From NCBI GenBank assembly GCA_017503165.1, contig JAFVTO010000153.1, forward strand, positions 1-46,623: a stretch of 46,623 bases of DNA, given 5' to 3'. Under the pieces are notes generated by a model. It was not told the origin of the DNA and made no database searches. It saw only the letters and a list, made by a program, of their open reading frames with translations. This DNA is from Clostridia bacterium (GTDB taxonomy: Bacteria; Bacillota; Clostridia; Oscillospirales; CAG-272). Within the stretch, counting starts at the first letter, position 1; the number at the start of each line of letters is the position of its first letter. Of this stretch, positions 34,913 to 35,844 are shown one piece after another. Position numbers and translations under genes: made by a program.

Positions 34913-35056
34913 GCTTGCAAGAATTGGCGAAAACGGAGACGTTAATGCGCTCTTCCACTGAGCTACAGAGAGAAGATCTGAGCTTCTCTAGGTCGGACTC
35001 GAACCGACGACCTCACGATTAGAAATCGAAGTAGCCGCTTTCTACACTGTGCAAGC
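34913..35056 (-). ncRNA. YrlA-like Y RNA, unit A (permuted tRNA-like)
   Basis: Terminal helix GCUUGCA/UGCAAGC, T-arm GUCGG-UUCGAGU-CCGAC, closed hairpin AGAGAAG/CUUCUCU and D-arm UA-GCUC-AGUGGAA-GAGC. It differs from unit D at 3 of 144 positions. Confidence 0.75.
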
Positions 35057-35183
35057 ATTCTGACCGCCTTCAGCTTTTTCGTTAAAGTCCACCAAGGTGG
35101 TGACGGAGCCCTTTTAGTCGGGCGCTGATGAATGCCAACAAGAAAATATATGGGGAAATCAAGGGAATTTGCTGAAAAAGGAT

Positions 35184-35320
35184 GCTTGCAAGAAACATAG
35201 CGAGCCGGTACAAAGCGCCTTGCCACTTTGGCCATACGACAGCAGAGCTGATCGCAGCCGGACTCGAACCGGCATCTCATGATTTTAATTCGAAGTATCC
35301 GAGCTCTACACTGTGCAAGC
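35184..35320 (-). ncRNA. YrlA-like Y RNA, unit B (permuted tRNA-like, class-II-type D-arm)
   Basis: Terminal helix GCUUGCA/UGCAAGC followed by CCUUUUU. T-arm GCCGG-UUCGAGU-CCGGC, a 9-bp closed hairpin with one bulge, and D-arm UGGCC-AAAGUGGCAA-GGCGC. Confidence 0.7.
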
Positions 35321-35340
35321 ATTTTGCTTTTTACATTCTC

Positions 35341-35369
35341 ATTATAGCACGAATTTTTCGGTTTATCAC
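35341..35369 (-). promoter_or_regulatory. Promoter of Y RNA unit B
   Basis: On the minus strand: GTGATA, 17-nt spacer, extended -10 TGCTATAAT. It is part of a ~75-nt block conserved upstream of units B, C and D. Confidence 0.6.
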
Positions 35370-35448
35370 GGAAAAAACGTTGCGAAATGAGATTTTTATT
35401 TATTTTTTCGGGGGATTGCTTGCTGCTCTCCCCCGGGAATAGCATAAG

Positions 35449-35584
35449 GTGTTGCGAGAAAAGTCGAAGGCGTACTATTCTTGTGCTCTACCAACTGAGC
35501 TATTTCCGAAGCTATGCGGAAAGTCGGACTCGAACCGACGACACCAAGTCCCTTGAAGTAAACGCATTCTACACTGCGCAACAC
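35449..35584 (-). ncRNA. YrlA-like Y RNA, unit C (cleanest permuted tRNA-like fold)
   Basis: Terminal helix GUGUUGCG/CGCAACAC. CUUG/CAAG anticodon-stem equivalent, variable loop GUGUC and T-arm GUCGG-UUCGAGU-CCGAC. Capped acceptor UUUCCG/CGGAAA, then UA-GCUC-AGUUGGUA-GAGC. Confidence 0.78.
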
Positions 35585-35603
35585 TTTTGATCTTTACGTC
35601 CTC

Positions 35604-35632
35604 ATTATAGCACGAATTTTTCGGTTTATCAC
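35604..35632 (-). promoter_or_regulatory. Promoter of Y RNA unit C
   Basis: Same GTGATA-17 nt-TGCTATAAT cassette. Confidence 0.6.
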
Positions 35633-35700
35633 GGAAAAAATGTTGCGAAATGAGATTTTTTATTTTCACCCTGAAACCAAGGTAATAATAATCAACGGTA

Positions 35701-35844
35701 GCTTGCAAGAATTGGCGAAAGCGGAGACGTTAATGCGCTCTTCCACTGAGCTACAGAGAGAAGATCTGAGCTTCTCTTGGTCGGACTCGAACCGACGACC
35801 TCACGATTAGAAATCGAAGTAGCCGCATTCTACACTGTGCAAGC
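35701..35844 (-). ncRNA. YrlA-like Y RNA, unit D (near-identical paralogue of unit A)
   Basis: Same modules as unit A, with 3 substitutions in 144 nt. Confidence 0.75.

What the first reader, a model, noticed from the sequence alone, without database searches (positions are those of the whole stretch)
34913..35844. Four tandem, circularly permuted tRNA-like RNAs (YrlA-type Y RNAs) fill the 1.2-kb ORF-free gap upstream of a Ro60 (rsr) gene
Seen in sequence. The only long non-coding gap (34775-35969) contains four minus-strand units: A 34913-35056, B 35184-35320, C 35449-35584 and D 35701-35844. Read 5'->3' on the minus strand, each unit has the following parts in order. (1) A 7-8 bp helix formed by its two ends: GCUUGCA...UGCAAGC in A, B and D, and GUGUUGCG...CGCAACAC in C. 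(2) A variable-loop-like AGGUC or GUGUC. (3) A canonical T-arm G(U/C)CGG-UUCGAGU-CCG(A/G)C. (4) A closed 6-9 bp hairpin, for example UUUCCG-CAUAGCUU-CGGAAA in C. (5) UA followed by a canonical D-arm: GCUC-AGUUGGUA-GAGC in C, GCUC-AGUGGAA-GAGC in A and D, and class-II-like UGGCC-AAAGUGGCAA-GGCGC in B. The order T-arm -> capped acceptor -> D-arm is a circular permutation of normal tRNA order. In other words, the tRNA-like body is entered through an opened anticodon stem that continues into the terminal stem. Established knowledge. This is the architecture described by the Wolin laboratory for bacterial Y RNAs of the YrlA type (Salmonella YrlA), which are encoded next to rsr. The gene immediately downstream (33299-34774) is a TROVE+vWA Ro60 orthologue. 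Inference. These are four Y RNA genes. A four-copy tandem array with three different tRNA-like bodies is richer than the one- or two-gene model loci. I am not aware of it being characterised experimentally in Clostridia. The ORF-track entries across this region are translation artefacts.
Basis: partly seen in the sequence, partly recalled or inferred. Interest (0 to 1): 0.85.

Follow-up and report, generated by a model that had tools for sequence, protein, structure and literature searches.

The report
Four tRNA-like Y RNA genes beside rsr
The 1.2-kb gap upstream of a Ro60-like (rsr) gene holds four genes for small RNAs that pair a conserved protein-binding stem with a circularly permuted tRNA look-alike; this is a divergent Firmicutes lineage of the known bacterial YrlA-type Y RNAs, and such arrays are common in related genomes.

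Summary
Four minus-strand units (A 34913-35056, B 35184-35320, C 35449-35584, D 35701-35844) lie upstream of a TROVE+vWA gene.

A covariance model built only from units A and D found 76 full-length homologues (E<=1e-6) in 80 related rsr loci. With the refined model, 93% of 198 hits start within 1 kb upstream of rsr on its strand. Compensatory changes support every helix, plus the tRNA Levitt pair.

The interpretation as YrlA-type Y RNAs is supported, with four corrections:
- Rfam YrlA matches only below threshold (15-35 bits against 69).
- The conserved stem motif differs from the published GNCGAA.
The permutation break therefore lies inside the anticodon stem.

Arrays of 1-6 units are the norm in Clostridia and Bacilli, and some predicted viral contigs carry more. 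Four copies is therefore not exceptional.

Units B, C and D each carry a copy of a conserved promoter block. Unit A has none and is followed by a terminator-like hairpin.

Verdict: real, functional by comparative evidence, a divergent variant of a known kind, of moderate interest.

The parts
35701..35844 (-). Unit D, a 144-nt Y RNA with a tRNA-like body. In unit numbering (nt 1 = 35844): P1 1-7/138-144; bulged C8; A9-U137, G10-C136, U11.U135, G12.U134; P2 15-22/121-128; CUACUU linker 23-28; anticodon-like hairpin 29-41 (loop UUUCUAA); P3 42-43/110-111; variable loop 44-48; T-arm 49-65; closed acceptor stem 66-91; U92 A93; D-arm 94-108.
   Evidence: Read. R2 128.3 bits, E 7e-30. Pairs supported.
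35449..35584 (-). Unit C, a 136-nt Y RNA. It has the most canonical tRNA core (D-arm GCUC-AGUUGGUA-GAGC, 6-bp closed acceptor stem). Its anticodon-like hairpin is reduced to CAAG-GGA-CUUG.
   Evidence: R2 100.4 bits. Best Rfam YrlA match, 34.6 bits, E 1.9e-5.
35184..35320 (-). Unit B, a 137-nt Y RNA. It is the most divergent body: 3-bp D-stem GCC/GGC with a 10-nt loop (class-II-like), an interrupted acceptor stem, and hairpin loop AUUAAAA.
   Evidence: R2 75.0 bits, E 1e-16. Rfam YrlA only 15.4 bits.
34913..35056 (-). Unit A, 144 nt. It is a near-copy of D with 3 differences, two of them in helix P2 (U.U to A-U, and G-C to G-U). It has no promoter block of its own.
   Evidence: 127 bits.
35845..35925 (-). 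Promoter block upstream of D. Conserved CATTTCGCAACGTTTTTTCC, then -35 GTGATA (35893-35888), a 17-nt spacer, and an extended -10 TGcTATAAT (-10 at 35870-35865). About 20 nt separate the -10 from the unit start.
35585..35662 (-). Promoter block upstream of C (-35 at 35632-35627, -10 at 35609-35604).
35321..35408 (-). Promoter block upstream of B (-35 at 35369-35364, -10 at 35346-35341).
35057..35183 (-). B-A spacer without a promoter block. Its ends (TATTTTCTTGTTGGCATTC ... AAGGCGGTCAGA) are conserved in the nearest relative. B and A are probably co-transcribed.
   Evidence: The co-transcription is an inference.
34861..34898 (-). Terminator-like hairpin (13-bp stem GGCUCCCGAUUCG/CGGAUCGGGAGCC, loop UUUGA) followed by UUUAUUC, lying between unit A and rsr.
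   Evidence: Read. A counterpart exists in L081. The consensus scanner did not flag it.
33299..34774 (-). rsr: a Ro60 homologue of 491 aa with TROVE and vWA_Ro60 domains.
   Evidence: Pfam TROVE 2.5e-30 and vWA_Ro60 1.7e-11. Best solved relative is Thermus phage phiLo phiRo60, 9KOP/9L5Y, E 6.5e-32. 3259 homologues at E<=1e-20.

Best explanation
The four units are genes for Rsr-associated Y RNAs of the YrlA kind.

Architecture (shown by covariation). Each transcript folds so that its 5' and 3' ends form a long, interrupted stem:
- P1, 7-8 bp of free sequence.
- A bulged C, then an almost invariant A-U, G-C, U.U, G.U block.
- An asymmetric internal loop with invariant A14 and G129.
- P2, an 8-bp helix.

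An invariant YUACUUC linker then leads into a complete tRNA look-alike: a 2-bp stem equivalent to tRNA 27:43 and 28:42, a 5-nt variable loop, a T-arm, an acceptor stem closed by a loop, U8-A9, and a D-arm with the 15:48 Levitt pair. A 3-bp hairpin with a 7-nt loop is contiguous with the 2-bp stem. Together they can rebuild a 5-bp/7-nt anticodon arm, so the tRNA is permuted at a break between positions 28 and 29.

Function (inferred by analogy with characterised Ro60-Y RNA complexes). The conserved stem is the handle that Rsr binds. The tRNA-like module is the effector end: it tethers Rsr to a partner (PNPase or a tRNA-binding enzyme) and/or gates Rsr's cavity.

Transcription (inferred from sequence). 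Units D, C and B each start from their own sigma-70-type extended -10 promoter. Unit A is read through from B. A terminator-like hairpin largely separates the RNAs from rsr.
For: - Sequence anatomy read directly.
- Sub-threshold but repeated Rfam YrlA matches to C, A and D on the right strand: E 1.9e-5, 4.3e-4 and 6.7e-4.
- A model built only from A and D finds 76 full-length relatives at E<=1e-6 in other genomes' rsr loci.
- The refined model finds 198 full-model hits in the 80 loci. 184 of them (93%) start within 1 kb upstream of rsr on its strand.
- 70 of 72 loci with at least 1 kb of upstream sequence have at least one unit.
- 94% of cells are paired, and all 31 seed pairs show double changes.
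- A mutual-information scan on an alignment not fitted to them recovered further pairs: the P2 extension, G10-C136 (GC 56/UA 11), the hairpin closing pair (CG 29/AU 19/UA 7), 43-110 and 42-111, the acceptor base pairs, and Levitt 48-99 (CG 43/UA 10).
- RNAalifold on a plain MAFFT alignment recovers P2, the T-arm, the acceptor stem and the D-arm; 22 of its 25 pairs have compensatory changes.
- tRNA-invariant nucleotides are conserved: U8, A14, R15, G18G19, R26 and U54-U55-C56-R57-A58.
- The neighbouring gene is TROVE + vWA_Ro60. Its closest solved relative is a phage Ro60 shown to bind upstream-encoded Y-like RNAs (PMC12135203).
- Published YrlA features are matched: within 4 kb of rsr on the same strand, T/AS/D order, YUAY, a V stem-loop, and Levitt covariation (PMC4201824).
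- Three promoter-like sites were found.
Against: - No unit reaches the Rfam YrlA gathering score, in the window or in 13 related loci.
- The published Rsr-contact motif GNCGAAN0-1G is absent as such. The nearest string is GYAGAAN.
- The protein scores far below the NCBIfam Rsr equivalog cut-off.
- There is no expression, end-mapping or binding data for this organism.
- Single-sequence folding energies are only modestly better than shuffles (z -1.4 to -2.1).
- The 2-bp stem is short, and its stacking on the hairpin is an inference.
- Pair counts from model-fitted alignments lean towards the model.
Confidence: 0.85

Rival explanations
1. The units act in cis as structured leader or decoy elements of the rsr transcript. 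For example, they could be Rsr-binding sites that autoregulate rsr through read-through of the hairpin after unit A, rather than free trans-acting RNAs.
For: - Nearly all units lie just upstream of rsr on the same strand.
- Unit A has no promoter of its own and is followed by a hairpin with a weak U-tract just before rsr.
- No sigma-70-like promoter was found between that hairpin and rsr.
Against: - Three units have their own promoters.
- In some loci the units lie downstream of rsr (L012, L025, L043, L059) or 4.8 kb away (L002/L003).
- Characterised relatives are processed, stable, trans-acting RNPs (PMC4201824).
- The conserved tRNA-like tertiary features have no obvious cis role.
Confidence: 0.05
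2. The units are permuted pre-tRNA-like genes. After transcription they are cut in the acceptor loop by RNase P/RNase Z, and perhaps re-ligated by RtcB, to give tRNA-like or two-piece molecules. Their main role would lie in translation or tRNA metabolism, not in Rsr tethering.
For: - All tRNA arms, including an anticodon-like arm, can be drawn.
- M. smegmatis YrlA is cut by RNase P and receives CCA (PMC4201824).
- An RtcB-like ligase follows rsr in about 18 of 80 loci.
- True tRNA genes are interleaved with the units in some loci.
Against: - The length of the acceptor stem region varies widely, 3-32 nt between the T-arm and U8.
- Only about half of the units have a 7-nt loop, and the 'anticodon' triplets include nonsense-reading ones such as UUA and UCA.
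- There is no RtcB in this window.
- The most conserved part is the non-tRNA stem, which such a role would not need.
Confidence: 0.05
3. The units are decaying relics of tandem tRNA genes (pseudo-tRNA dimers) with no present function.
For: - The Rfam tRNA model gives weak hits to the 5' halves of the units: 21-22 bits in the window, and about 30 bits in L035 and L036.
- The family model cross-hits true tandem tRNAs over positions 28-111.
Against: - Compensatory changes keep every helix, including the non-tRNA stem, across Clostridia and Bacilli.
- About 13 stem and linker nucleotides are near-invariant in 134 distinct units.
- The link to rsr is strict.
- The promoter blocks are conserved.
Confidence: 0.02

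Closest known systems
YrlA RNAs (Rfam RF02553; S. Typhimurium and M. smegmatis YrlA; Chen et al. 2014, PMC4201824; crystal structure of the tRNA-like domain, bioRxiv 10.1101/312249)
   Same: - Encoded next to rsr on the same strand.
- The 5' and 3' ends pair into a stem.
- A YUAY motif.
- A stem-loop 5' of the T-arm (their 'V').
- T-arm, then closed acceptor stem, then UA, then D-arm.
- Levitt-pair covariation.
- A variable acceptor length.
- More than one such RNA near rsr in some species (355 RNAs in 276 genomes).
   Different: - The units score only 15-35 bits against the 69-bit threshold.
- The stem carries CAGUG(Y)AGA ... UUUCG ... UUCU rather than GNCGAAN0-1G.
- By covariation, the hairpin lies 5' of the two surviving anticodon-stem pairs, not in the variable-arm position. 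It often has an anticodon-loop signature (Y32 83%, U33 82%, R37 91% among 7-nt loops). Salmonella YrlA is described as lacking an anticodon loop.
- There is no sigma-54/RtcR control here, and no RtcB in the window.
D. radiodurans Yrn1/Yrn2 cluster upstream of rsr (PMC4201824)
   Same: - Several small RNAs are encoded in tandem upstream of rsr.
- tRNA genes lie within the cluster, as in related loci L001, L006 and L011.
- A T-arm is present, and one RNA was modelled with an anticodon-like arm.
   Different: - Yrn1 has the opposite arm order and a metazoan-type Ro-binding helix.
- No Rfam Y_RNA match was found here, even at E<=10.
Thermus phage phiLo Yrl1/Yrl2 with phiRo60 (PMC12135203; PDB 9KOP, 9L5Y)
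   Same: - phiRo60 is the closest solved relative of the window's protein (E 6.5e-32).
- Two Y-like RNAs are encoded just upstream of its gene. They bind the protein and form a complex with PNPase.
   Different: - The phage RNAs were identified through a CGAA motif in a bulge.
- 'tRNA-like' does not occur in that paper's main text.
Circularly permuted tRNA genes of red/green algae and an archaeon (as cited in bioRxiv 10.1101/312249)
   Same: - The acceptor stem is closed by a loop.
- The two ends pair through the anticodon-stem region.
   Different: - Those are precursors that are processed into real tRNAs by splicing enzymes.
- Here the most conserved element is an extra protein-binding stem, and the loops and acceptor lengths are not constrained as they are in tRNAs.

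Membership tests
YrlA (Rfam RF02553 / Chen et al. 2014) | Reaches the curated Rfam gathering score (69 bits) | tested here: not met
   No hit at gathering threshold in the window or in 13 related loci. At the E-value threshold: C 34.6, A 29.9, D 29.3, B 15.4 bits.
YrlA (Rfam RF02553 / Chen et al. 2014) | Encoded within about 4 kb of a Ro60/Rsr gene, on the same strand | tested here: met
   The units lie 139-1070 nt upstream of rsr on the same strand. The same holds for 93% of 198 family hits.
YrlA (Rfam RF02553 / Chen et al. 2014) | T stem-loop, then closed acceptor-like stem-loop, then UA + D stem-loop, carrying tRNA-invariant nucleotides | tested here: met
   Read. Helices covary. In 134 distinct units: U54 131, U55 120, C56 130, A58 133, U8 126, A14 125; GG in the D-loop in 117.
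YrlA (Rfam RF02553 / Chen et al. 2014) | Levitt 15:48 tertiary pair kept by compensatory change | tested here: met
   Unit D nt 48 with 99: C-G 43, U-A 10, U-G 3, other 1.
YrlA (Rfam RF02553 / Chen et al. 2014) | GNCGAAN0-1G motif near the 5' end (proposed Rsr contact) | tested here: not met
   No exact match in any unit. The closest string is G-Y-A-G-A-A-N (nt 12-18), with A where the motif has C. The family has its own near-invariant C-A-(G/U)-U-G-Y-A.
YrlA (Rfam RF02553 / Chen et al. 2014) | Conserved YUAY before the stem-loop that precedes the T-arm | tested here: met
   CUAC in A and D, AUAC in B, UUAC in C. In the family U24 is 134/134, A25 117/134 and C26 134/134.
YrlA (Rfam RF02553 / Chen et al. 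2014) | Bound by Rsr; modified by TruB/DusA; present as a stable small RNA | not testable with these tools
   No expression or binding data are available for this organism.
Ro60/Rsr protein | TROVE (HEAT-repeat ring) domain followed by the Ro60-type vWA domain | tested here: met
   PF05731 at 2.5e-30 and PF25045 at 1.7e-11. Full-length match to phiRo60 9KOP/9L5Y at 6.5e-32.
Ro60/Rsr protein | Passes the NCBIfam 'RNA-binding protein Rsr' equivalog (NF041674, cut-off 900 bits) | tested here: not met
   30.4 bits, over the vWA region only. The protein is a divergent branch of the family.
Canonical tRNA gene | Normal arm order, detected by a tRNA finder or the Rfam tRNA model at threshold | tested here: not met
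   ARAGORN finds none. Rfam tRNA scores 22 and 21 bits against 29. The alternative 'normal' D-stem GUAG/CUAC shows no covariation and is mismatched in 92 of 124 sequences.
Metazoan/Deinococcus-type Y RNA | Match to Rfam Y_RNA or to the GGUCCGA-type bulged helix | tested here: not met
   No such family appears among matches up to E=10 in 34700-36100. A bulged C next to the terminal helix is present, but the sequence differs.

The most novel reading that the evidence does not exclude
In this Firmicutes lineage the Y RNA is a complete tRNA mimic, anticodon arm included. The hairpin plus the 2-bp stem form a 5-bp/7-nt arm with Y32, U33 and R37, and a freely varying 'anticodon' (29 different triplets among 66 loops; UUU, GUU and UCU are the commonest).

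Under this reading, an array of units with different bodies and loops would give Rsr a panel of tRNA decoys or sensors. These would be aimed at anticodon-directed enzymes such as modification enzymes or anticodon nucleases. That would tie Rsr/Y RNA to the tRNA-damage and RtcB repair axis.

The units would also be living intermediates of the proposed dimeric-tRNA origin of Y RNAs.
Probability: 0.1. Interest if true: 0.8.

Novelty: new variant of a known kind. Interest (0 to 1): 0.4.

Why it matters
Bacterial Y RNAs are the least understood partners of Ro60, which is a conserved RNA-quality-control protein and a human autoantigen. Experimental work rests on three bacteria and one phage.

What this locus and its roughly 200 relatives add:
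- Gut and rumen Clostridia, Clostridium, Bacillus and some predicted viral contigs carry a coherent Y RNA lineage that the curated Rfam model does not annotate.
- The lineage has a sharply defined, almost invariant stem motif. This gives a concrete, mutable candidate for the Rsr contact.
- It has a tRNA-like module more complete than that of Salmonella YrlA.

The alignment and model built here would support a new or extended Rfam family. It offers natural 'with and without tRNA body' variants for testing what the tRNA module recruits, and sequence support for the dimeric-tRNA origin model.

The limits are clear. The class, its genomic linkage and its tRNA mimicry are already published, and multi-copy arrays are ordinary in this clade.

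Tried and rejected
1. Rfam at gathering threshold on the window and on 13 related loci found no YrlA, only true tRNAs.
2. ARAGORN found no tRNA or tmRNA.
3. My first stem model paired AGAA (nt 14-17) with UUCU (134-137). It was only 81% paired with little covariation. The mutual-information scan replaced it: AGAA pairs with UUUC (125-128) as part of an 8-bp P2, and G10-C136 lies next to P1.
4. An alternative 'normal-order tRNA' D-stem, GUAG/CUAC, as suggested by the Rfam tRNA alignment, shows no covariation and is mostly mismatched.
5. RNAfold's alternative hairpin for A and D (nt 30-35/43-48) was set aside without a pair count. Covariation instead supports 29-31/39-41 and 42-43/110-111, which use the same bases.
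6. A functional link to the MnmM tRNA-U34 methyltransferase gene directly upstream was considered. That gene is next to rsr in none of the 80 related loci.
7. I read the conserved TTGGCATTC in the B-A spacer as a possible sigma-54 promoter. The -12 GC is out of register in the window and absent in L081, so I rejected it by inspection.
8. A search for close phage relatives of the protein in GenBank phages found none above 32% identity.
9. The supplementary species tables of Chen et al. 2014 and two Wolin-laboratory reviews are not held. I therefore could not check whether Clostridia or Bacilli were already on the published YrlA list. The text says only 'at least 10 phyla'.
10. Single-sequence folding gave weak z-scores and inconsistent inner structures, so it was not used as evidence.
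Full report
**1. Observation**

These features are all there as described:
- the terminal helices (GCUUGCA/UGCAAGC in A, B and D; GUGUUGCG/CGCAACAC in C);
- the AGGUC/GUGUC linkers;
- the T-arms G(U/C)CGG-UUCGAGU-CCG(A/G)C;
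- the closed hairpins that follow them;
- the UA + D-arm.

Unit B's D-stem is only 3 bp (GCC/GGC). Units A and D differ at 3 of 144 positions. Two of those changes fall in one helix and keep it paired.

The T-arm motif occurs four times in this gap and nowhere else in the window. ARAGORN finds no tRNA. The mechanical ORFs across the gap have no Pfam match. The gene that follows (33299-34774, minus strand) has TROVE and vWA_Ro60 domains.

**2. Curated-model test**

Rfam reports nothing in the window at gathering thresholds. At a permissive threshold on 34700-36100, the only meaningful matches are to YrlA (RF02553). Scores are C 34.6 bits (E 1.9e-5), A 29.9, D 29.3 and B 15.4, against a threshold of 69. 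There are also weak tRNA-model matches to the 5' halves of B and A.

The YrlA alignment rests almost wholly on the T- and D-arms. The second helix of the Rfam model has no counterpart here.

**3. Relatives**

The protein has thousands of homologues. An alignment of 21 of them retrieved 80 genomic loci. They are mostly Clostridia MAGs; the closest are Eubacteriales, Borkfalkiaceae and Christensenella at 64-66% identity. Clostridium, Acetivibrio, Oceanirhabdus and Bacillus are also represented.

A covariance model built from units A and D alone found 133 matches at E<=1 and 76 at E<=1e-6. Nearly all are full length and on the rsr strand.

A second model built from those 76 found 214 matches at E<=0.01:
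- Of 198 full-model hits in the loci, 184 (93%) start within 1 kb upstream of rsr on its strand, and 4 lie just downstream.
- 70 of 72 loci with at least 1 kb of upstream sequence have at least one unit.
- tRNA-like units per locus number 0-5 (mode 2; three loci have 4 and one has 5). Counting all units, 18 of 72 loci have 4-6.
- Many loci also have short units (about 68-116 nt) that keep the stem but lack the tRNA-like body. This parallels YrlB in the model organisms. The window has none.
- Partial hits over model positions 28-111 are true tandem tRNA genes. Chen et al. warned of this cross-reaction.

The nearest relative (Rsr 79% identical, L081) has three units in its 907 nt of upstream sequence, with the same layout as the window.

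**4. Structure**

Slid controls reach only 32-48%.

That alignment is fitted to the seed structure. I therefore ran a mutual-information scan on it for pairs that were not in the seed. I then counted the revised structure. In unit D numbering, the scan found:
- **P2 is 8 bp (15-22/121-128).** The conserved AGAA pairs with UUUC, not with UUCU as I had first drawn it.
- **P1 continues past a bulged C8.** The continuation is A9-U137 (invariant), G10-C136 (G-C 56, U-A 11), a conserved U11.U135 mismatch and G12.U134.
- **A hairpin at 29-31/39-41.** Its closing pair covaries (C-G 29, A-U 19, U-A 7).
- **Two pairs, 43-110 (G-C 40, U-A 10) and 42-111 (G-C 17, A-U 17, U-A 9).** These are the equivalents of tRNA 27:43 and 28:42.
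- **The acceptor stem starts directly after the T-stem** (66-91, 67-90).
- **The tertiary pair 48-99** (C-G 43, U-A 10) is the tRNA Levitt pair.

RNAalifold on a plain MAFFT alignment of 33 units independently recovers P2, the T-arm, the acceptor stem and the D-arm. Compensatory changes occur in 22 of its 25 pairs.

An alternative 'normal-order' D-stem, GUAG/CUAC, has no support.

Across 134 distinct units the near-invariant positions are A9, U11, G12, A14, U24, C26, U27, U28, C29, G129, U134, U135 and U137. The tRNA core positions U8, A14, R15, GG, R26 and U54-A58 are also conserved.

**5. The anticodon-like arm**

The strand 39-43 is continuous. Nucleotides 39-41 pair with the hairpin's 5' strand. 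Nucleotides 42-43 pair with the two nucleotides that follow the D-arm and the purine at the position of tRNA 26. If the two helices stack, they form a 5-bp stem capped by the hairpin loop.

Of 124 distinct long units, 66 have a 7-nt loop. Among those loops:
- position 32 is a pyrimidine in 83%;
- position 33 is U in 82%;
- position 37 is a purine in 91%;
- position 38 is A in 65%;
- positions 34-36 vary freely, with 29 different triplets.

The window's units A and D have UUUCUAA, B has AUUAAAA, and C has a reduced triloop.

The tRNA look-alike is therefore complete in many units. The permutation break lies in the 5' strand of the anticodon stem (between 28 and 29), not at an open anticodon stem. 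Chen et al. describe a less-conserved 'V' stem-loop upstream of the T-arm and a YUAY motif in many YrlA RNAs. This hairpin is probably the same element. The covariation here places it outside the variable-arm position. The stacking itself is an inference.

The 5' half of several units looks enough like a whole tRNA to reach about 30 bits on the Rfam tRNA model (L035 and L036). That fits the published dimeric-tRNA origin model.

**6. Transcription signals**

Units D, C and B are each preceded by a block of about 80 nt that is roughly 90% identical between copies. The block contains GTGATA, a 17-nt spacer, TGcTATAAT, and a conserved upstream CATTTCGCAAC...CCGTGATAAAC segment. The -10 ends about 20 nt before each unit, so a short A-rich leader is predicted.

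The block is found again only in the nearest relative, L081. Elsewhere the units are 10-20 nt apart behind a single promoter.

Unit A has no block. Its upstream spacer has two segments conserved in L081. Unit A is followed by a 13-bp hairpin plus UUUAUUC (34861-34898), and then rsr.

There are no canonical terminators after D, C or B. The hairpin after C is followed by an A-run.

**7. Context**

Synteny around the module is not conserved:
- The upstream MnmM-like tRNA methyltransferase gene is next to rsr in none of the 80 loci.
- An RtcB-like ligase follows rsr in about 18 loci, but not here. Here a convergent MatE gene follows.

The protein is a divergent Ro60. It scores 30 bits on the NCBIfam Rsr equivalog, whose cut-off is 900. 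It also gives a full-length match (E 6.5e-32) to Thermus phage phiLo phiRo60. That protein binds two Y-like RNAs encoded upstream of its gene and assembles with PNPase.

A pattern scan of viral contigs found the same RNA family in IMG/VR contigs. Some carry rsr, with up to 64% identity to the window's protein, and one has over a dozen model hits in 1.9 kb.

**8. Mechanism**

Shown:
- a conserved two-module RNA, a stem handle plus a tRNA-like body, supported by covariation;
- strict linkage to rsr;
- promoter-like and terminator-like signals.

Inferred from established Ro60-Y RNA biology (PMC4201824; bioRxiv 10.1101/312249; PMC12135203):
- Rsr binds the conserved bulged stem formed by the RNA ends.
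- The tRNA-like module binds an effector or gates the Rsr cavity.
- The short units elsewhere in the clade, which keep the handle without the body, support this modular reading.

Three different bodies in one array suggest either diversified partners or simple redundancy. I cannot tell which.

**9. Comparison and novelty**

The units work like YrlA and share most of its defining features. Two tested criteria fail: the Rfam threshold and the GNCGAA motif. I therefore file them as a divergent variant rather than a plain member.

The class, its linkage to rsr, its tRNA mimicry and the existence of several Y RNAs per locus are all published. I could not check whether Firmicutes were in the published list.

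The four-copy array is not exceptional in this clade. What is new is modest: a well-defined Firmicutes/phage lineage missed by the curated model, its invariant handle motif, the placement and anticodon-like signature of the hairpin, and per-unit promoter copies in this sub-lineage.

Noticed in passing
window 35970-36608 (-): The gene directly upstream of the array, on the same strand, is an MnmM-type tRNA U34 (5-aminomethyl-2-thiouridine) methyltransferase (NCBIfam NF053511, 188 bits; Pfam PF06962). A tRNA anticodon-loop modifier next to tRNA mimics is suggestive. However, the gene is not next to rsr in any of the 80 related loci.
   Followed up: yes
window 35845-35925, 35585-35662, 35321-35408 (-); L081 40-118 and 293-370: A promoter block of about 80 nt is repeated three times. 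It carries a conserved CATTTCGCAAC(N)TTTTTTCCGTGATAAAC segment that overlaps and extends upstream of the -35 element. It is conserved in the nearest relative but absent from all other loci. It may be an operator for an unknown regulator.
   Followed up: partly
window 35057-35183 (-); L081 505-646: The spacer before unit A has no promoter block. It keeps two segments (TATTTTCTTGTTGGCATTC and AAGGCGGTCAGA) that are conserved in L081. A sigma-54-like reading of TGGCAT fails on register. Its function is unknown.
   Followed up: partly
L001 4900-4971; L011 4316-4387 and 4530-4601; L006 4496-4568: Genuine tRNA genes (Rfam 55-72 bits) sit between Y RNA units, or between the units and rsr, in related loci. 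This recalls the Yrn2-tRNA-Asp-Yrn1 precursor of D. radiodurans.
   Followed up: no
for example L009 4534-4618, L004 4480-4556, L035 4619-4686, L001 4452-4541: Short units of 68-116 nt keep the conserved stem and the UUACUUC linker but lack the tRNA-like body (YrlB-like). They are common in related arrays. The model found none in the window.
   Followed up: partly
L002 6461-7717 and about 17 other loci: An RtcB-like RNA ligase lies immediately downstream of rsr in about 18 of 80 loci. It is absent from the window, where a convergent MatE transporter (31580-33013, +) follows rsr.
   Followed up: partly
L059 6457-6594, L043 6427-6564, L025 2458-2595, L012 6476-6615; L002/L003 36-342: In some Clostridium loci, and in the Flexilinea MAG L012, one tRNA-like unit lies just downstream of rsr. 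In two Borkfalkiaceae/Christensenella MAGs the units lie 4.8 kb upstream of rsr.
   Followed up: no
L097 17-1892; L087 8509-9214; L098 1071-1776; L088/L093; L082: The same RNA family occurs on predicted viral contigs (IMG/VR), with or without rsr in the fetched stretch. The largest is an array of over a dozen model hits in 1.9 kb (L097, from a 182-kb contig). The Rsr homologue P0003 (68% identity) sits among phage-like genes (amidase, homing-endonuclease-like, HTH).
   Followed up: partly
window 35410-35437 (-): After unit C there is a G+C-rich hairpin (CCCGGGGGA...UCCCCCG) followed by an A-rich run rather than a U-run, so it is not a canonical terminator in either direction. It may be a 3'-end processing or stabilising element, or part of the next promoter's UP region.
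   Followed up: no
window 33299-34774 (-): The Ro60 homologue is far from the curated bacterial Rsr model (30 bits against a cut-off of 900). By sequence it is closer to a Thermus phage Ro60 than to any other solved Ro60. D. radiodurans Rsr was not matched at E<=0.001.
   Followed up: partly
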